Of a stretch of DNA of 64,000 nucleotides, positions 19,427 through 63,716 are shown one piece after another (the stretch's first letter is position 1; each line of letters starts with the position of its first letter). Source of the stretch: Eledone cirrhosa (Eukaryota); NCBI GenBank assembly GCA_964016885.1, contig OZ024741.1, positions 343,294,001 through 343,358,000 on the forward strand, in the 5' to 3' direction. The notes under the pieces were generated by a model. That model was not told the DNA's origin, made no database searches, and saw only the letters and a program-made list of their open reading frames with translations. The position numbers and the translations under genes were made by a program.

Positions 19427-19806
<380 letters not shown>

Positions 19807-29436: not shown

Positions 29437-29705
29437 GTGTGTGTGTGTGGGCATTTTATAAGAAAATTAGAGGCATGATGACCTATTCTTTTTACTACAG
29501 AAAATAGTGTAAATAATAGGGTGCATAAGCCCCCTTAGCAGAAAAGCCAGACATTATCACCTGTGGAATCACGAACTTACTTGATTATGATGCCATTACA
29601 CCACACAAAACAAACAATTAGATGGTACCTCTAACTTTCTCAGAAACTTTCAAAATTCGCTCATCATTTCTAATCACACGTTGATATATATATACATATA
29701 TATAT

Positions 29706-30015
<310 letters not shown>

Positions 30016-30248: not shown

Positions 30249-30300
<52 letters not shown>

Positions 30301-30304
<4 letters not shown>

Positions 30305-30859
30305 TATGTATACGTACATACATATATGTATACAGACGTACAGTAGTATGTATATACATACGTACATGCACACATATATATATGTACGTATGGGTTTACC
30401 GAACATTTATTATAATGCTCGGTTTGTTTGTAAACAAACAGCCCGAATTATTAGCCGTACAGTGTTCGGCAACTATCGTTGCCATTGTGTTCAACACTGA
30501 CAAAGGAACGATGAACTAGTTTCTAGATTATTAGCTGTCATCAGCACCGTATACCTTCCTGTCAGTTGATTGAACGTTTGAAAGTATATACTTTCCTTGT
30601 GCATATTAACGGCTGAGCATTATAATAAATGTTCGGTAAACCCATACGTACATATATATATGTGTGCATGTATGTATGTATATAAATACTACTGTACGTC
30701 TGTATACATATATGTATGTACGTATACATATTTATATTTAACTATCAGCCGTACTAAGAGTGAGAAATGAAATTTCATTTTTTTCCATTTATCGTTTTCG
30801 GTACGCCAGGCCGACTAACTCACTCGATATCCAAATTAGGCTGCTCAGCCGTTAATATG
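30301..30859. mobile_element. Family L foldback, HHR on minus strand at 30508-30550
   Basis: Inverted arm 30301-30618. The plus arm 30617-30859 runs through the unit junction. ACGGTG-CTGATGA...GAAA-CTAG-TT-CATCGT. Confidence 0.8.
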
Positions 30860-34436: not shown

Positions 34437-34554
34437 TACATACAGTACAAAAAGGGTTTTATTTACAGTATTAACAATGTTTCATTGATTAGGATATCTA
34501 AAGAATGCTAATCACTCGAAGTTGTGTCACTCAATCTTAAATACAGTGTAACCC

Positions 34555-36624
34555 TATATATATCTCCTTCAAACGCGCACGCAATCTCCGCACACTCCTC
34601 GTCCGCAGCTCCCTACCCCCCAAGCTACGCCCCCCGCGATTCCCTTCCCTGCTCCAGGCCTCGTGGCCACACCTGCCTCCACATCACCAACACCACCACC
34701 TTCAAGGGTCCCAACGGCCACTTTCTCTCTGTCCGGTACGCCTTCCGCTGCACCTCCTCTAGCCTAGTCTATGGACTTCGCTGCACGGAGTACAGCGCAA
34801 CCTATGTCCGACAGATTGGACGTCGCCTGGCGGACCGTTTCACTGAACACCTCCGGGATATTCGTCTCGGCGGTAGTTCCCCCATCGCCCGCCACTTTGG
34901 CTTCCCTGGACATTCCGCCCACCACCTAACAGTCTGTGGCCTACTCCAATGCCACGGAACGCCCGCCATCCGCCTCACGGTCGAACAACGCACCATCTTC
35001 ACCCTACAAACCCATATACCCACCGGCAGAAAATCACCACCCTATTCCTTTAGCCTTCGACCGCCCTGTTTTCCTCCCACACACACATTTCCCCCACTAA
35101 CACCACTAACACACTCCTCCTTTTCACCGCCCACCCCATTGGCCCACCCCACCCCACCCCGGCCAACCTAACCGCCAACTAACAATACTAACATCCCCAC
35201 CCCTCCCCCTATCACGCACACACCCACCTGTACATATATACACGCACTCACACTATCCACACACCCTACTATCACCACTAACCCTAACCCACACATCCAC
35301 TCCAACCACCCCACAACTAATACCACTAACACCCCCCCCCCCCCGACCCCACGCACATGAACACACACCTTCCCACCCACACACACCTTCCCACCCACCC
35401 ACACCCACACCTACATGCACCACCTACTCTACACACCCAACCACCACTAACCCCCAGTAACACACCTTATTCAACCCTTTCCCCACCACCATTATACTAA
35501 CACCTACTAACACCCATTTACCACACACACACTCATCCCAACATGCACACACACACCAATACACCACACTCCCTCCACCATCTCCTACACCTTTTCTATC
35601 CCTCTCCCACTCCCGGCTCCACACACCACTTCACACACACACATCCCAGTAACACCTCTACTAATACACAGCCCATCCCCCCACATGACCCCCTCCCCAC
35701 TCCACCTTTCACACCTACCCATCCTCTCCCATGTCCATTGCACCTCCGCACACACAAGCACACAGTCCTCACCAAACACTGACTTTCTCCACCTGTCATT
35801 CTCCTCTACTGCTATGCCTTCATCCTGCCTTGACCCTCTGACCACTTCCTGTTGCGCGCGCACCACACATCTCCCCACTTCTGACCACCACAACCAACGG
35901 ATTACACACCACCGGTCATCGTTCCAGCTATCCACTCCATAACATGAAAAATATCCACCAACTTTTCGCACACTCCAGGGAACTACTTTAGGAACTTACC
36001 CACGGACATACGCTCACAATTTTTTTTCGAACCACGCCACCCACATCCACCCCACGTATAAAAACCAACACACACGTGCGTACCCCCACATATACACACT
36101 CAGCCTCCGGAATCCTCCTCCTCCCCTCCCCCACCACTCTGACCTCTCCCCATCCACACGCACACACCGACCTACACCCCCACACCTTTTTCTGAACATG
36201 GAAACTCGTTCTTCCCCCAACGCTCACATTCACATACACACACACACACACACACATGTACACCTACACACATACACAAACACCACCTTCAGCCCTCCCC
36301 GCTCGGATCCCCCGCCTCCCTCTCCCTACCCCACCCGCCACCACCCCTACACGCCCACAGCCTTCCACCACTTGTTTATCTTTATGCTTATTTTTATTTT
36401 TATTTGTACCCCTTCCACCGTTTTTCCTTCCTTTTCTCCCTCCCGCCTTTCTAAATGTCTCTCCACCACTCCCCCACACACCCTCGGAACTATCTTCCCA
36501 CCCAATTCTCTCCTGAAGAAGGGCTTATGCCCGAAACGTCGTCCCCCACCCCTCACTCTCAAGAGCGTGAAACTAATAAACCTTTGTTTGTACTGCCTCT
36601 CTTTTTTTGTTCCCGTTCCAGTTT

Positions 36625-36628: not shown

Positions 36629-36676
<48 letters not shown>

Positions 36677-37306
36677 AATGTAAGTATGTATGTATACGTA
36701 CATACATATATGTATACAGACGTACAGTAGTATGTATATATATACATACATGCACACATATATATATATATATGTACGTATGGGTTTACCGAACATTTAT
36801 TATAATGCTCGGTTTATTTGTAAACAAACAGCCCGAATTACGCCGTGAGAAATGAAATTTCATTTCATTCTTTTCCATTTATCGTTTTCGGTGCGCCCGG
36901 CCGACTAACTCACTCGATATGCAAATTAGGCGGCTCAGCCGTTAATATGCATAAGGAAAGTATATACTTTCAAACGTTCAACCATCTCACAGAAATGTAT
37001 ACGATGCTGACGATAGCTAATAAGCTTGAAACTACTACATCGTTCCAGTGTCAGTGTTGAACAAAAAGGTGACGATGGTTGACTGAACACTGAACGGCGT
37101 AATTCGGGCTGTTTGTTTACAAACAAACCGAGCATTATAATACATTTTCGGTAAACCCATACGTACATATATATATATGTGTGGATGTATGTATATATAT
37201 ACATACTACTGTACGTCTGTATACATATATGTATACATACATACTTACATTTAAGTAAGTGCCGTACTAAGAGTGAGAAATGAAATTTCGTTTCGTTCTT
37301 TTCCAT
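36677..37306 (+). mobile_element. Family L foldback, HHR at 37001-37043
   Basis: Inverted arm 36677-36844, then nearly one full unit that begins and ends with GTGAGAAATGAAATTTC. Confidence 0.8.
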
Positions 37307-37398
37307 CTATATATACATATATATTCACAAATATATGCTTATAACATTTTCTCGTAAGTTCTCTCTCTCTCTATATATATATATATACATACATACAT

Positions 37399-37455
<57 letters not shown>

Positions 37456-37456
<1 letters not shown>

Positions 37457-37990
37457 CGAAGGAAATGTGGTAAGGAACCAGGTGGACCATAACGCACCAA
37501 AGTACTCAATACTTGAGGTAGTAGAGTGGGTAATAGGAACCAGTAAGACCCCGACAGCTGAGCTCAAGCCGTTTCGACGGCTAATTCTGGACTAAATGAA
37601 AATTTATCCTGGTATTTAAATAGCCGATCTTCTCAAGGGGTAATTCCATATATGGTCAAAGTGATTGTCAAAAATCAGTAGTAATTCTGTGGTTGCAAAT
37701 TAGTAGGGGAGATGGTGGCTAAACCTGCCAGTAGGTCTACTCCACCCCCTCCACCCCCTGATTGGGTCTACTCCACCCCCTCCCCTCTTTCTCCTACTGG
37801 CAGGTTTAGCCACCATCTCCCCTACTAATTTGCAACCACAGAATTACTACTGATTTTTGACAATCACTTTGACCATATATGGAATTACCCCTTGAGAAGA
37901 TCGGCTATTTAAATACCAGGATAAATTTTCATTTAGTCCAGAATTAGCCGTCGAAACGGCTTGAGCTCAGCTGTCGGGGTCTTACTGGTT

Positions 37991-48724: not shown

Positions 48725-51460
48725 TTAATTTAGCTTGGGTTGGAATTTATCAATAAAATTCTTTTCTTTAATTTTTCTCTTGATTTCACTTGGGCTGTAT
48801 AGTTTGTAGAATGGAAATATTATAAATATTTTCTGACCACATGTTGCTAGATGGTTACTCAGGGGGTATCTGACGGACATTTAGGTCTCTGATTTGCTGT
48901 CGGTGCACCGTGCACGTTCCGATAGTGCATTTCCAGTTTGACCGACATATAGTTCTTCACAATTCGGGCATTTAATGCAGTAAATTAGATTTCTGCTTTT
49001 GCAGTTAATATTTGCCTTTGGGAATATTTTTCCAGTTTTTGTGTTCATATATTGACCAGTGTGTATGAACTGACATGTGCCACATCGACTACCATTGCAT
49101 TTAGATACAGTGAATGATTGGTTTTTGTTGGTAAGGTCAAACTTTGCCTTTGTTAGTAATTGCTTCAAATTTTTCGGCTATCTTTTACTAAGAATCAAAG
49201 CTCGGTCTGTGATTAAACCTTTTAATTCATTACTTTCAGCAATGATCGGTAGGTTTGCTTTGGCAGTGTTGAAGATATTCTGGTGACATGGGTTGTGTGT
49301 CATTATAAATGGTATGACCAGTTCTTGGTTTCTTCTTCCTTGGGTTGTCCTAAGTTGTTGTATAGGTATTATTATAGCCCGCTGTATACCATTTTCTATA
49401 AGTAGAGATGGGTATTTTTGTTTGAGCAAACATTCTCTCAGTTCTGTTAGGCGTTTGTTCCTGGTATTCGTATCTTCTACAATGGTACAAATTCGTCTGG
49501 CTAGGCAGTATGGGAAGTTGCGTTTTGTATGAGCTGGATGGCACGACTTAAAATTAAGATATTGATGGGTGTCTGTGTGTTTATAGTATATATCCGTGGT
49601 AATAGTGGTGTCGTTTTTTATTACCATTATATCTAGGAATGGTTATTTGGTACTACTCATCTCTTTTGTAAATTGGAGTGATGGTTGTAGGTTATTCAGG
49701 AGGATATTGAACTCATCCAGAGTATCTAGAGATTCTGTCCAGATGATGAAACAGTCGTCAAGGTATCTCTTCCAAGACTTTTCAACGCAGTTTCTAAATT
49801 AAGTGCTATATTTTCCTCTATTTCTTGGTAGAGTTGTTGTTCTAAGTATCCCATTACAGAGTTCGCGTAAACGGGAGCAACTTCGTTCTCATCGCTGTGC
49901 CTCTAATTTGGATGTAACTCTTTCCATTGAAGAAGACAGTGTTGTTTTCCAGAATAAGTCTGATATAAATGGCGCTGTGAATCTGGTGGGAATCACTACT
50001 CTATGTTATTCCACCCAGTATTTAACCGCCTTTATTCCTAAATCATGTGTAATGTTGGTGTAAATGCTTACCACATCAAAACTAAGTAGAAGTGAATTCG
50101 TTTCCGTGGTTTTGGGAAGATGGGACAGGAAGTCGATATCATCCCGGATGAGACTGGGTATGTGAATACATAATGGTTTCAAAATATTTTTTCTGCTTTT
50201 GGCACAAGGCCAGCAATTACCCAGTGCATTACTGGTACTTTATTTTATCGACCTGCGTAAGGATGAAAGGCAAAATCAACCTCGGCGGGATTTGAACTCA
50301 GATCGTTAAGGGACGCAACTATCCTGGAAAGCATGGCGTCCAACCCTCTACCGATACTGCCAATCCACCGCCTTTGGTTTCAAAATAATGTTAACAAAAT
50401 TGCTTACACGGTGAGAAGGGCATGTTGGACCAGCTATAAAAGGTCTAAGTTTTAAGTATTTTGGGTGCAGTAATTTAATGTACTCACTTTTTTGTTCTTT
50501 CACTGCCAGTTGGATTTCTTTTGACTTATGAATTTTCGGTAAGCCATAAAAGTTGCTGGGTTTTGGCTCAAATTTGGTGATAATTGTGATTATTAATTAT
50601 CAGTAAGGGAGTTGTAGTATTTTGAAGCCAGGTTGTTGATCTTCTTCATGATGTTGTGGTCTATATTTGACGGTATTTCATGATAGAATGTTGTGTCTTT
50701 CAGTTGTTCCTCACCCAAATCTTTGTAGTATTCAGCATCCATTAAAACAACTGCATCCCCTTTATCTGCTTGTTTAATTATTATTGTTTTATCATTTTGT
50801 ATACGTTTAAGTGCAACAATTTCCGATTTGTTAATGTTTGGCCTAACATTAGTATCACGTCTAAGAGGGAATTTAGACAGGATATCAATGTATTGGTCGA
50901 GATAGATATTTCTTTCTTTTTGCGGAGTGAAATTTGATTTATTCTTTACTAGTGATTCATCACTCTCATTACTTTTATCAGCGAAGAATTCTACAAGTCG
51001 TAATTTACGACAGAATTCTTGGGTATTCTCCTTTAGTTCTTGATGGTTGACTGTTGGTGTCGGTGTGAATTTCAGTCCTTTTGACAGAATTTGCATTTCG
51101 TCATTGTAAAGATCTCTTTTGGATAAATTAACTATTTTAGGATCTACGTGTACAGTTGTTTTCGGTATGTTTCCTCCTGGAGTTTTTCTTTTTCCGGTTT
51201 TTGTTGAAGTTAAAAAATGGATTTTTCTCTGATCAAGATTTATATTCCTGTTGGTGTTTGCTTGATGACCTTTTGGTCATGATATTATACTTAGTTTCGT
51301 TGTTTTGTGTCCAATTTTTGGTATTATGTATATTATTTTTTCCATTTCTTGTTAGCATTGTTTTTAACAATCTGGGAAAATGACCTAAATTTACCTAGGT
51401 TTGCTTTCAGGTTTAGATCGTTTTTTTGCCCAGTTTCTTCTGGGTAATCTCTGTTGAGAT
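48725..51460 (-). mobile_element. Decayed near-full-length PLE ORF (Neptune/Nematis-like RT + GIY-YIG)
   Basis: Motifs LSKGLKFTPTP, IIKQADKGDAVV, RYLDDCFIIW (near 49740-49770), TDIYYKHTDTHQYL..SCHP, CNGSRCGTC, LIYCIKCPNCEELYVGQT, ending FQPKLN*. Multiple stops and frameshifts. The 5' end abuts (TA)n. Confidence 0.9.
50187..50374 (-). mobile_element. tRNA-derived SINE inserted into the PLE RT, with 13-bp TSD
   Basis: TGGTTTCAAAATA at 50174-50186 and 50375-50387 flanks the SINE body. Confidence 0.9.
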
Positions 51461-51663: not shown

Positions 51664-51794
51664 TATATAAATATATACATATGTATATATGCATATATAT
51701 AAATATATACATATATATATATATACATATATACATATATACATACTTTTATATATATATATATATATAGATATATATACACACACACATATAT

Positions 51795-51871
<77 letters not shown>

Positions 51872-51924
51872 ATCTAGATTGCATATTCAATAAATATGGA
51901 TTTCTTAAACTTCCTGACTTCCCT

Positions 51925-52000
<76 letters not shown>

Positions 52001-52249
52001 TGTATATATATATATATATGGTATTAAATAAATAGAAACTATATTTATAAAACCATATTTATTTCGTTATATATATTTCAGGGATATCATATTAACAATA
52101 TGTTATGCCATCTTCAGACAAAATACAATATAAACAGTCTTATAAATAAATAGATACGACATACCTTTCAATCACCTTGCATTTGGGAGGTTGATTTGGC
52201 AGTAAAAAATATTGTGGACAGTTGTGAAAAGAAAGAGATAAAGAGAGAA

Positions 52250-53591
52250 ATATTATCGGCTAGGAAAACATTGATAGAATTTAATGGCCAACTATGGACT
52301 CGAGCAGATAGAGATAACAATTTTGACATTACTATGGGATCATCCGACTCAGCTCAGGTAACTGACCTTGTGGGCTTATTTTTAATCAATTCGCTGCATA
52401 GGAAAATACCTGGTACTACCGGAGGTTTATATAGAGATGACATGCTTTTACTTATTGATAATAATAACTCTGAACTAAATAGAAAAAGAAAACAAATTAC
52501 ACAATTTTTTAATCACTTTAATCTAAAAATAGAAATTGAGAATAACCATAGAATAGTCAACTTCCTAGATATAACATTAAATCTCAACACATGTCTTCAC
52601 TATCCATTTCACAAGTTGAATGAAAACTTAAACTATGTCAGCTTTAACTCTAACCACCCCAAATCTGTTAAAAATACTATAGTAAACTCTGTTCAATCAC
52701 GTATCTCTAGAATCTCATCTAATAAAAAGATTTTCGACGAAAAAGCCCATTATTACAATGAAGCGTTAGCTAGAGCAGGATATAGTGATAAAATTATGTA
52801 CATAGATAATGATAAACAAATTAAACAAAATAACAACTATTTTAATTATGGCCACAACCTTAACAACTATAATAGAAAGCATTACAATAATTCCAAAAGC
52901 CATAAAAGAAATAGAACTAGGAATATAATATGGTTTGCCCCCCCCTTTCTCACTAAACATTAAAACCCACATTGCTAAACTATTTTTTAAAGCTCTCGAT
53001 AATCGCTTCCCTAGAACACATAGGTATCACTCAATTTTCAATAGACATACTATAAAACTAACCTACTCATCCACCAAAAATTTAGCGCAAAATATTAATA
53101 GAATAAATAACAGGAACTTAAAACCTAGCGATAATAGCATAAATAATATCCAAGTTAACAAATGTAACTGTAGAGATAGATCTAAATGTCCGTTAAATAA
53201 CAACTGCTTAGTTAAAAATATAATATACAACTGTAATGTTAAAACGGACGTTAATTCTTTTAACTACGTTGGTTCTACATCGACGGAATTTAAACTTCGC
53301 TATAACAACCACAAGAATTCTTTCACAGATCCATCCAAAAAATCTTCAACAGCACTATCAGGCGTACTCTGGCAACTTAGGCATGATAACGTTAGATATT
53401 CGACGACTTGGAATATAGTTTCAAGTGGGATTCCTTTTAATTCATCCTCTGAGACATGTGACCTCTGTGCGGAGGAGATATTCTTTATACTAAAATCTAA
53501 AAATTCCCTTAATCTACGGACAAATTTATTCAGTTGCTGCAGACATAGATTGAACTCAACGTTTAAATATAAATTTAAATTTAAAATGTAG
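52250..53591 (+). pseudogene. PLE reverse transcriptase (C-terminal half) plus GIY-YIG endonuclease, split by one frameshift near 52940
   Basis: Motifs FDITMGSSDSAQVTDLVG, GLYRDD, VNFLDITL, YVSFNSNHP, IIWFAPPF; then CNC..CPL..C, IIYNC..YVGST..FKLRYNNHK, CDLC..E..LNLRTNLFSCCRHR. The frame changes in the C8 run at 52938-52945. The track ORF start at 52196 lies in the inverted arm and is not a real start. Confidence 0.9.
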
Positions 53592-54514
53592 TTATGTTTG
53601 TTTTGATTTGATTTGTAATTATTTATGAAACTAGCCGATAAATCTTTCGATTTCTTCTTTTTCTTTTTTTCTTTATACTTCTCTGATATTTTTATTTTTA
53701 TTTTTATTTTTATTTTTATTAATATATTGAAATCTGTTCTCTATTTCTGCTTGATCGACAATCATGTAGAATAAAGACAAGAATAGTATTGTTAAAATTA
53801 ATATAGACTCTATATATATGTGTATATATACACACATATATGTATACTTGAATTTTTATAGCACAATGAGAATGTTTTCGTGTGAATTGGGAGTTTGTTT
53901 ATAATTATGATATAAACATATGAATTTTTAAAAACTAGACATAAGATCATTACTTTTCACACATTATAGATACATGTCTCATTCATGAATACTGGTACTT
54001 ACATTATAATGCCTGTTTTATACGAACTAATATTTTCTACGGATAAAACATAGCGGTTTTAAATTCTGCATCGTTTATGTCTGGTTGTGTTTCATTTTCT
54101 CTTTTTCATTTTCTCTTTTTTCTCTCTATATAACGGCTATTTTCTCTCTTAACTACATACATCTCTCTTTACATTAATACTAGAGCTAAATAAATAAATA
54201 AATAAATAAATAAATGTATCAACCGATACTCAACTTCCTAATTTCTCTATCTATCTCTATCTCTTTCTTTTTTCCTCTCTCTATATATATTTCTCTCTGT
54301 TTCTTTACATGAAGTTCTTCTCTTTATCTATCTTTCTATATCCCTCTATTTAGTCACATGCATTTCTTCTTTTTCTTCGTTTCTCTTTCTTTCTCTCTTT
54401 ATCTCTTTCTTTTCACAACTGTCCACAATATTTTTTACTGCCAAATCAACCTCCCAAATGCAAGGTGATTGAAAGGTATGTCGTATCTATTTATTTATAA
54501 GACTGTTTATATTG

Positions 54515-54580
54515 TATTTTGACTGAAGATGGCATAACATATTGTTAATATGATATCCCTGAAATATATATAACGAAATA
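54515..54580 (+). ncRNA. Minimal type I hammerhead ribozyme in the PLE 3' region (inverted copy 52060-52125)
   Basis: TATTTTG(T/A)-CTGAAGA-stem II-GAAA-TATATA-TA-ACGAAATA. Stem I is 8 bp in the left copy. Palindromic stem III. Confidence 0.75.
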
Positions 54581-54708
54581 AATATGGTTTTATAAATATA
54601 GTTTCCATTTATTTAATATCATAAATATTCTCTAAATACTTGTTGAGTGCTTTTATATCAGTTATAAATATTTACTCGTTGTTAACCCAACAATTTAAAT
54701 ATAACTTT

Positions 54709-54799
<91 letters not shown>

Positions 54800-54811
54800 C
54801 ATATTTATATT

Positions 54812-54924
<113 letters not shown>

Positions 54925-55748
54925 TTATATTTCTATATGTGTGTGTGTAATTTCACAAACATAGATGCAACAATGTGTTCACACGTACACGGAGGCAGCC
55001 ACATTCCTAATTCCAGCATAGAAATGTAATATATAGAGAAATGGATAAATATATACTATATATATGTATCTTTTAGCAGCCACCTACCAATTATTTATTG
55101 TTGACTCCTGCGGTGTGTCGATCACGTACCTCACTTGGAACGGCCGACTGAAGATACGTTAATGATGGAATACATGTGCTTTACGGGCTTAGAGCGATTC
55201 ATGCGTACATCTACTATACGTCTTGCACACATTTACCTTTAACTCTCACACACTCAGTCTCTCTCATGCATATACACTCATACACACATGCATATAAATA
55301 TATATACAGATACATATATGTATATATATGTATATATATGTATATATAGATATAGTGTACATATATATATATATGTATGTATAGATATACGTATATATAT
55401 AATATATATATGTATATATACGTATATATGTTATATATTATATACACATATATATGTGTGTATATATACATATATATTATATATACATATATATACATAT
55501 ATATATATATGTATATATACATATATATATGTACATATTTCTATATGCACATATAATATATATATGTATATATATATATACACAAACACATATATACGAA
55601 ATATTTATACACATATATAAATATGTATATATATAGATATACATACACACATACACACATATGTATATATATACACATATATACATATATATATATATAT
55701 ATTTATATAATATGTATATAATATGTATATAATATGTATATATTATAT

Positions 55749-62031: not shown

Positions 62032-62392
62032 GCGTATGTATATATGTGTGTATATATATATGTATGTATATATGTATATATATATATATTTTTATTTTTT
62101 TATTTTTTTAAAAAGATTGTTTTGGTAAAAAGAGGAGTAAGCAGGAGAAAGCTCTCAACGATCGTTGTTTTTAGCTACGATGGAGAATTTTATAAAAATA
62201 ACAAAATAAGATGCTGAGGTTACATATATCGTTTATTCATAATAATTATTTCCACGGTTCTCCATGCAGTCGAGATGTCCTTCATGTACTTGCTGTTGAT
62301 TATGAGACGGTATCCTCAGATGAAATCGATATGTTTGATATGTCGCTGGCAGGAAAAACACACGTCCTCATGCCTGTCTGCCCAGCATATAT

Positions 62393-62526
<134 letters not shown>

Positions 62527-62530
62527 TTAT

Positions 62531-63023
62531 ACATACTTATATTTAAGTAACAGCCGTACTAAGAGTGGGAAATGAAATTTCGTTTCATTTTTTCCGTTTA
62601 TCGATTTCGGTGCACCCGGCCGATTAACCCACTCGATATGTAAATTGGGCTACTCAGCCGTTAATATGCATAAGGTAAGTATATACGTTCAACAATCTGG
62701 CAAGAAGGTATACGTTGCTGACGATAGCTAATAAGCTTGAAACTAGTACAGCGTTCCTTTGTCAGTGTTGAATAAACGAGCAACGGTGGTTGCTAGACAC
62801 TACGGCTTAATACGGGATGTTTGTTTACAAACACACCGAGTATTATAATAAATGTTCGGTGAATCCATACGTGCATATATATATATGTGTGCATGTATGT
62901 ATATATATATACATACTACTGTACGTCTGTATACATATATGTATGTACGTGTACATACTTATATTTAAGTAACAGCCGTACTAAGAGTGGGAAATGAAAT
63001 ATCGTTTCATTTTTTTCCGTTTA
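62531..63023 (+). mobile_element. Family L retrozyme-like element: 422-nt unit plus about 70-nt direct terminal repeat, HHR at 62712-62754
   Basis: 62531-62600 is repeated at 62953-63023. ACGTTG-CTGACGA-TAGC/GCTT-GAAA-CTAG-TA-CAGCGT. Confidence 0.8.
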
Positions 63024-63031
63024 TATATATA

Positions 63032-63230
63032 TATAGATTTCACCGTATTTTTGACTAAAGGAATAAAGATGAGTATTGACGTACATGTACGTGAATACTC
63101 ATCTTTTTCCATTTATCTGAGGGTTCTAAACCCCATTATCAGTCTAAAATTCCTTTAGTCAAAAACACGGTGAAAGCTATTCCATTTTCTAATTTCAAAC
63201 CTGCTCACTGTTTCAAAACATATTTACTTG
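63032..63230 (+). mobile_element. Family O small foldback
   Basis: ATAGATTTCACCGTATTTTTGACTAAAGGAAT inverted at 63148-63180. Internal hairpin and about 50 nt of tail. TA flanks. Confidence 0.6.
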
Positions 63231-63248
63231 ATATATATATATATATAC

Positions 63249-63283
<35 letters not shown>

Positions 63284-63287
<4 letters not shown>

Positions 63288-63481
63288 AGAGTCAGGACCC
63301 CGACGGCTGAGCTCCGGCCGTTCCGTTTCTACAGCTAGATCCGACAGTTCGGATCTAGCTGTAGAAACGGCCGGAACTCAGCCGTCGGGGTCCTGACTCT
63401 TTTCATATTACCCAGTCTACTATCCTAAGTATCGAGTACTCTGGTGCGTTATGGTCCACCTGGTATCTTACCACACCTTTG
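63284..63481 (+). mobile_element. Family H-related foldback
   Basis: 63284-63344 is inverted relative to 63349-63405. GAAACGGC...GCCGTC-GGGGT. Tail contains TCGAGTAC. Confidence 0.8.
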
Positions 63482-63716
63482 TATATATATATATATATAT
63501 ATATAAAATAATTGTTTCTACTTTTGGCACAAGGCCAGCAATTACCCAGTGCATTACTGGTACTTTATTTTATCGACCCCGTAAGGATGAAAGGCAAAGT
63601 TAACCTCGGCGGGATTTGAACTCAGAATGGCAAGGGCCGTAACTCTATGCATCAAAGCATGGCATCCAACTCTCTACCGATACTGCCAATTCACCGCCCT
63701 TGTTGATATATATATA

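What the first reader, a model, noticed from the sequence alone, without database searches (positions are those of the whole stretch)
62531..63023. Family L: a non-coding, circularly permuted 422-nt hammerhead monomer (retrozyme / circular RNA candidate)
Seen: one 422-nt unit plus a 70-nt direct repeat of its start, with a single HHR (62712-62754) and no ORF. The copy at 36677-37306 starts and ends in the same GTGAGAAATGAAATTTC segment. The copy at 30617-30859 reads through the end of the unit into its beginning. Stem I stays paired across copies (ACGTTG/CAGCGT, ACGATG/CATCGT, ACGGTG/CATCGT). Known: animal non-LTR retrozymes are short HHR-containing tandem units that yield circular RNAs and are thought to use PLE machinery. 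Inference: this is a TA-targeted retrozyme that also acquires PLE-style inverted arms, linking it to the PLEs in this window.
Basis: partly seen in the sequence, partly recalled or inferred. Interest (0 to 1): 0.85.

Follow-up and report, generated by a model that had tools for sequence, protein, structure and literature searches.

The report
Hammerhead retrozyme with Penelope-type paired ends
This is one of thousands of copies of a 422-base non-coding repeat that carries a hammerhead (predicted self-cutting) RNA motif and sits in TA microsatellites, often as two back-to-back arms that end at two fixed sites about 60 bases apart, a pattern likely left by a Penelope-type retrotransposon enzyme copying a possibly circular RNA.

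Summary
In detail: window 62531-63024 is one 422-nt unit plus a 71-nt repeat, with one intact type I hammerhead motif (62712-62754) and no ORF, between TA runs. The family is large (8,740 exact matches to a 24-mer) and forms tandem arrays with period 422. In a position-ordered sample, 85 of 100 arms end at one of two fixed sites about 60 nt apart. In 23 of 25 classifiable head-to-head pairs one arm ends at each site. This is the Penelope-like (PLE) inverted-arm and 'tail' signature. The 71-nt repeat is mostly that tail. 83 of 85 arms read through the cut site, so the template was a circle or an uncut multimer, not a cut linear monomer. This one-hammerhead copy cannot itself release a monomer. 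No ORF-bearing parent was found, and the PLEs in the window share no sequence with the unit. Cleavage, transcription and circles are untested. Verdict: a new member of the animal non-LTR retrozymes. The scan noted this family before on other DNA of this genome (e1-8665316).

The parts
62531..62952 (+). one 422-nt unit, subfamily a, 8 differences from the family majority
62953..63024 (+). repeat of unit positions 1-71; holds site A (about 62959-62964) and the roughly 60-nt tail to site B, where this arm ends (about 63020-63024)
62712..62754 (+). type I hammerhead motif, core intact, U.U at the base of stem II, 1-bp stem III with a 6-nt palindrome; predicted cut 62748|62749
62687..62773 (+). predicted extended stem I (about 21 bp with bulges) that would hold the two ends of a cut monomer together
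   Evidence: prediction; weak covariation
62388..62530 (.). upstream (TA)n run, the 5' side of the target
   Evidence: sequence
63022..63037 (.). downstream (TA)n run right after site B
36671..36846 (-). subfamily b copy, inverted arm ending at site A
   Evidence: L162
36845..37310 (+). subfamily b copy, direct arm of 1.07 units ending at site B; hammerhead with a changed stem III
30295..30617 (-). subfamily c copy, inverted arm ending at site A, carrying the hammerhead (GUU triplet)
   Evidence: L192
30615..30859 (+). subfamily c copy, direct arm from unit position 308 through the junction to 138, then unrelated repeat

Best explanation
This is a single-armed copy of a large non-coding, hammerhead-bearing repeat family (a non-LTR retrozyme) whose insertions end at two fixed sites in TA microsatellites and that is likely copied into the genome by the enzyme of a Penelope-like retrotransposon. 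Shown: tandem arrays, fixed 3' ends at sites A and B, variable 5' ends, head-to-head arms that pair one A end with one B end, and read-through of the cut site. Inferred: tandem loci are transcribed; the weak hammerheads cut as dimers and the monomer is ligated to a circle; a PLE protein cuts both strands of a (TA)n target and primes reverse transcription from each broken end, one at site A and one at site B, probably helped by 3-5 nt of TA pairing; synthesis runs past the ribozyme for 0.1 to over 7 units; the two cDNAs are joined to each other, or one is joined to the target. The window copy started at B, ran 1.17 units and was joined to the TA run at the TA-like stretch near site A. The mobilising PLE was not identified; a Hydra-clade family is the likeliest candidate (inferred, weak).
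For: Arrays of period 422 on many chromosomes. Position-ordered sample of 60 loci: 41 arms end at A, 44 at B, 15 elsewhere; TA follows 31 of 41, 40 of 44 and 4 of 15. Of 33 head-to-head pairs, 23 are A+B, 1 A+A, 1 B+B and 8 have an odd end; one A+B pair is a duplicate. Top-hit sample: 17 A+B, none A+A or B+B, 7 with an odd end. Subfamilies b and c use the same two sites. Contigs of run X1 show loose TA ends at both sites (51 and 38 contigs). 83 of 85 arms read through the cut; 1 of 100 5' ends lies near it, 2.6 expected. Hammerhead core intact in 108 of 119, 37 of 41 and 16 of 18 copies. Unit folds far better than shuffles (circle z -7.6, non-TA part z -5.8). PLE inverted arm and one-ended tail: PMC8557442; two RT start sites and two-strand cutting: PMC11167929.
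Against: No partner found: in 132 PLE loci the unit appears only as separate inserted copies. TA-free junctions are not specific to one clade: of 148 free ends, 4 (3 loci) lie next to Hydra-type ORF pieces, 6 next to LINE-type ORFs and 1 next to the 775-aa PLE. The tail is about 60 nt against 30-40 nt in print. Covariation is thin: 2 of 25 pairs change on both sides and 213 of 500 shuffles match that. Some arrays grew after insertion (L287, L326, L042). 8 of 9 Xenopus dimers did not cleave in vitro (10.64898/2026.07.22.740005), and the anole PLE used uncut RNA (PMC11167929), so a circle is not required.
Confidence: 0.8

Rival explanations
1. Same PLE mobilisation, but the template is a long uncut linear transcript of a tandem source locus; the hammerhead is a weak passenger and circles play no part.
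For: The ribozyme has two weak features (U.U at stem II, 1-bp stem III). In the anole PLE uncut RNA was the main substrate (PMC11167929). Rare variants are present in only part of the copies of a two-armed locus in 11 cases against 8 cases where all copies carry them. The window copy mixes diagnostic letters of the two haplotypes.
Against: Both arms share the haplotype in 22 of 22 informative two-armed insertions (haplotypes may differ in age, which weakens this). Three private variants are in all copies of both arms of L032. Six of the 11 partial cases come from a duplicated or double insertion (L290, L058). The extended stem I would juxtapose the ends of a cut monomer.
Confidence: 0.35
2. 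The unit is the pseudo-LTR of an autonomous PLE not yet found, and the copies are its truncated ends.
For: Hammerhead, tail, inverted arms and TA target are all pLTR features (PMC8557442). In Xenopus 21 retrozyme-related TEs are PLEs (10.64898/2026.07.22.740005). The partner searches scored only 150 of 10,596-54,605 candidates each.
Against: Arms pass from the unit's end into its own start for up to 7.5 units. No shared 5' extension among 116 free 5' ends led to a common ORF. None of 132 PLE loci has the unit as its terminal repeat.
Confidence: 0.08
3. A DNA-level dispersed minisatellite, spread by recombination or extrachromosomal DNA circles at fragile TA runs, with a relic hammerhead.
For: Long local arrays exist (about 16 units in L062, at least 26 kb of higher-order repeats on C12). 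Some arrays carry marks of later duplication.
Against: Ends are polar: fixed at the 3' side, scattered at the 5' side, and A pairs with B in inverted arms. DNA recombination gives no reason for that.
Confidence: 0.05

Closest known systems
Metazoan non-LTR retrozymes (Cervera and de la Pena 2020, PMC7229834; Li, Clavereau and Pollet 2026, 10.64898/2026.07.22.740005)
   Same: Non-coding tandem units of 150-450 bp, GC under 50% (here 38%), one type I hammerhead per unit, highly self-paired predicted circle. The U.U at the base of helix II is as in axolotl HHR_Amex2 and the 1-bp helix III with a palindromic tetraloop as in HHR_Amex1.
   Different: Both weak features occur in one ribozyme. Insertions are two-armed, inverted, TA-targeted and have two fixed ends; 'inverted' and 'tail' do not occur in the main text of PMC7229834 and 'inverted' only in a reference of the preprint. 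Supplements were not seen. Expression and cleavage are untested here.
EN+ Penelope-like elements (Craig et al. 2021, PMC8557442; Poseidon of Anolis, Frangieh et al. 2024, PMC11167929)
   Same: 5' truncation, partial tandems, an inverted 5'-truncated arm, a tail at one end only, two end sites downstream of the hammerhead, (TA)n targets.
   Different: No ORF. The tail is about 60 nt, not 30-40 (a local 775-aa PLE shows about 50). The end sites have 3-5 nt of TA-like sequence, whereas the anole start sites were reported as not homologous to the target.
Non-autonomous Chlamys elements such as MRC1 (PMC8557442, passage read)
   Same: Non-autonomous PLE passengers with head-to-tail multicopy insertions.
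   Different: Those resemble their autonomous family at the 3' end, and Chlamys mostly lack canonical hammerheads; here a hammerhead is present and no such resemblance was found.

Membership tests
Non-LTR retrozyme | Type I hammerhead motif in each unit | tested here: met
   Motif scan: core intact in 108 of 119, 37 of 41, 16 of 18 copies. No Rfam match.
Non-LTR retrozyme | Short head-to-tail tandem units, at least two consecutive hammerheads | tested here: met
   Family level: 17 of 60 ordered loci. The window locus itself has only one.
Non-LTR retrozyme | No protein coding, no LTR layout | tested here: met
   Longest stop-free frame 53 codons on the circle; arrays have no LTR-internal-LTR layout.
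Non-LTR retrozyme | Self-cleavage as monomer or dimer | not testable with these tools
   Only predicted: active fold within 1.4 kcal/mol of the minimum, helix III palindrome duplex -4.8 kcal/mol.
Non-LTR retrozyme | Expressed as monomeric linear and circular RNA | not testable with these tools
   No run on record as RNA was available.
PLE-type insertion | Fixed 3' ends, variable 5' truncation, inverted arm, tail at one end only | tested here: met
   85 of 100 arms end at A or B; 23 of 25 classifiable pairs A+B; 5' ends spread over the unit.
PLE-type insertion | (TA)n target | tested here: met
   TA run follows 71 of 85 A/B ends and 4 of 15 other ends. Empty sites were not seen.
Autonomous PLE (pLTR of one) | RT plus GIY-YIG ORF joined to the repeat | tested here: not met
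   None in 159 retrozyme loci as a recurrent junction or in 132 PLE loci; the search was a sample, not exhaustive.
Non-autonomous derivative of a named PLE family | Sequence shared with the 3' end or pLTR of the partner | tested here: inconclusive
   No shared sequence with the sampled families; many families unsampled.

The most novel reading that the evidence does not exclude
A dimeric Penelope-type enzyme, possibly of the Hydra clade, binds one 422-nt ribozyme circle, primes from both ends of a cut TA microsatellite at two set sites 60 nt apart, one per subunit, and copies the circle round and round in both arms. The paired ends are then a genomic record of rolling-circle reverse transcription of a retrozyme and of the geometry of the PLE insertion complex.
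Probability: 0.4. Interest if true: 0.7.

Novelty: new member of a known kind. Interest (0 to 1): 0.47.

Why it matters
That PLEs move animal retrozymes is proposed from co-occurrence, shared hammerheads and pLTR similarity (PMC7229834; 10.64898/2026.07.22.740005). Here the insertions themselves carry the PLE footprint, with numbers: two fixed ends, used one per arm. This ties the in vitro result of two start sites and two-strand cutting (PMC11167929) to real insertions of a protein-free RNA. It also gives a short defined template and intact local PLE ORFs for testing which enzyme moves it and whether a circle is the template. The class itself is known.

Tried and rejected
Rfam: the whole-window scan listed only microsatellite-driven miRNA-type matches among its top 150 of 275, and the hammerhead region gave none. 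The isolated 76-nt hammerhead folds no better than shuffles (z 0.40). Sequencing runs: no RNA holder listed. Parent search with three window PLE pieces, the GIY-YIG family and one junction-borne Hydra-type piece found no shared sequence; L099 is a neighbour across a TA run, not a chimera. Chimeric junctions with Hydra-type ORFs (L346, L296, L184) looked like partner evidence but are not more frequent than LINE-type junctions, and the Hydra arm in L346 stops short of that family's usual end. RNA-editing scars, a lead from earlier notes: no excess of A>G over T>C on the sense strand (23 of 9,803 against 18 of 9,581). Mixed letters at unit positions 173 and 265 are probably due to ranking by likeness to the window copy. 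A DNA search with a majority-type fragment returned nothing because its words are too common; a pattern search replaced it. The script stopped before its Hydra-745 part, so that family's ends were not mapped. A lookup of earlier findings by sequence was empty.

Full report
Observation. Window 62531-62952 is a 422-nt unit followed by a 97% identical repeat of its first 71 nt (62953-63024), between TA runs. A motif scan of both strands finds a type I hammerhead layout at 62712-62754 with a predicted cut between 62748 and 62749. Stem I has 6 bp, stem II has 4 bp above a U.U mismatch, and stem III is one pair capped by a palindrome that could form a 6-bp duplex between two ribozymes (-4.8 kcal/mol). 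Rfam has no match there. The circularised unit has no stop-free frame over 53 codons. The two other window copies are real but are two-armed: 36671-36846 (minus) with 36845-37310 (plus), and 30295-30617 (minus) with 30615-30859 (plus).

The family. The own genome is 3.0 Gb; no call names the organism, and my impression of a cephalopod is recalled. The search scored 40 of 1,628 candidates and gave 63 matches at 96-100% identity, many spaced 422 nt apart. A 24-mer that starts at the cut has 8,740 exact matches and a degenerate core pattern 25,525, controls 0. The other window copies belong to subfamilies b (unit about 436 nt, 86% alike) and c. Further sisters have periods of about 466-500. The youngest loci differ from the majority by 0.16-0.7%. 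The core is intact in 108 of 119 a, 37 of 41 b and 16 of 18 c copies, and one stem I position is U.G, A-U or G.U by subfamily. The unit folds much better than shuffles (circle z -7.6; non-TA part z -5.8). Covariation is thin: 4 of 122 predicted pairs in 23 sequences (23 of 53 available units were given), and 2 of 25 pairs in the named structure, which 213 of 500 shuffles reach.

Insertion anatomy. Top hits are biased towards likeness to the window copy, so I also took 60 regions covering 99 of the first 100 listed pattern matches on C1. After dropping arms cut by the region edge, hits under 82% and TA-only hits, 100 arms remain: 41 end at site A (unit position about 8-12), 44 at site B (about 66-71) and 15 elsewhere. 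A TA run follows 31, 40 and 4 of them. 5' ends are spread over the unit. Of 33 head-to-head pairs, 23 are A+B, 1 A+A, 1 B+B and 8 have an odd end. One A+B pair is a duplicate (L290), and the A+A case (L300) looks like an A+B split by a TA expansion. In the top-hit set (35 loci; L038, L062, L068, L069 left out as long arrays) 17 pairs are A+B, none A+A or B+B, 7 have an odd end. Subfamilies b and c end at the same two sites. Contigs of run X1, which may be the source sample, show loose TA ends at both sites. The window copy is a single arm of 1.17 units ending at B; its 71-nt repeat is mostly the A-to-B tail.

Template. 83 of 85 arms that hold the 24-mer continue upstream through the cut, and 1 of 100 5' ends lies within 214-224, against 2.6 expected. 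A cut linear monomer is therefore not the usual template. 52 of 100 arms exceed one unit, the longest 7.5. Both arms share the haplotype in 22 of 22 informative two-armed insertions (my count). Rare variants are in all copies of both arms in 8 cases, in part of them in 11 (6 from a duplicated or double insertion) and in one copy in 180 (74 loci). This fits one template per insertion but does not separate a circle from a uniform linear multimer. Against a simple picture: the window copy mixes haplotype letters, and L287, L326 and L042 show later local duplication. No editing bias was seen.

Partner. The genome holds intact PLE ORFs. A 745-aa family (L130) has the RW-, DKT and CxCX5C motifs given for the Hydra clade (PMC8557442 section 11). 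A 775-aa family has RVT_1 (below its curated cut-off) and GIY-YIG matches; its copies end in TA at one site (4 of 5) or about 50 nt further (1 of 5). In 132 PLE loci from five searches the unit appears only as separate copies. Three loci join it to Hydra-type ORF pieces without a TA run, but among 148 free ends in 159 loci such joins (4 ends) are no more common than joins to LINE-type ORFs (6) (the LINE label is my reading). The partner is unidentified.

Mechanism. Shown: arrays, polarity, two end sites, A+B pairing, TA flanks, read-through. Inferred: transcription of tandem loci (17 of 60 have two whole hammerheads in one arm), dimeric cleavage, ligation helped by the extended stem I, two-strand cutting of (TA)n by a PLE protein, and priming at A from one end and at B from the other.

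Literature. PMC7229834: parts 2-4 of 6 read plus a term search; it describes the class and names PLEs as candidate mobilisers. 10.64898/2026.07.22.740005: parts 1-3 of 5 read plus a term search; it argues PLE origin in Xenopus, and 1 of 9 dimers cleaved. PMC11167929: parts 1-2 of 4 read; two RT start sites explain the tail, both strands are cut, a dimer is predicted. PMC8557442: passages and section 11 read; inverted arm, tail often at one end, (TA)n targets. Five searches listed no paper that, by title and abstract start, describes two-armed retrozyme insertions or this family; subscription papers and all supplements were not seen and may bear on this.

Verdict. A new member of the animal non-LTR retrozymes, with an unusually clear PLE footprint. 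Earlier scan notes reached the same reading for this family and its sisters; they were read after my own analysis of ends and are not independent support. Interest 0.47.

Noticed in passing
window 28982 (minus) and 29222 (plus): A different hammerhead family with 7-bp stem I, present as two identical motifs in inverted orientation; possibly another two-armed retrozyme.
   Followed up: no
window 3435 and 46558 (both minus), and about 36513 (plus): Minimal PLE-type hammerhead cores; the one near 36513 matches the motif downstream of the GIY-YIG family at 34512-35168.
   Followed up: partly
window 51665-54938: Frameshifted Hydra-type PLE with inverted arms; the family has intact 745-aa ORFs elsewhere, some as head-to-head pairs (L133), 43,864 candidates.
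   Followed up: partly
window 49181-51276 (minus): Broken copy of a 775-aa RT plus GIY-YIG PLE family with intact copies, its own hammerhead about 400 nt after the ORF and two 3' ends about 50 nt apart.
   Followed up: partly
G000:C12:20410000-20436000 (L068, L038, L069): At least 26 kb higher-order array built from this unit, with recurrent deletion junctions (unit 106 to 300): a retrozyme turned satellite.
   Followed up: no
L346 5806-6647 and 7385-8865: Head-to-head join of a retrozyme arm with the 3' part of a Hydra-type PLE, present twice in inverted orientation, outer ends in TA.
   Followed up: partly
window 63231-63505, 19449-19776, 29684-29936, 37360-37596; also L284 3100-3280: Another short non-coding repeat family with a long internal hairpin, flanked by TA runs.
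   Followed up: no
runs X5 and X6 (organisms B and C): Single low-depth contigs hold near-identical unit sequence and join its end to its start; one X6 contig leaves the unit one or two bases after the predicted cut. Too little to interpret.
   Followed up: no
L284 about 3440-3390 (minus): Hammerhead-like motif with a long stem II in the 3' region of a Hydra-type PLE.
   Followed up: no
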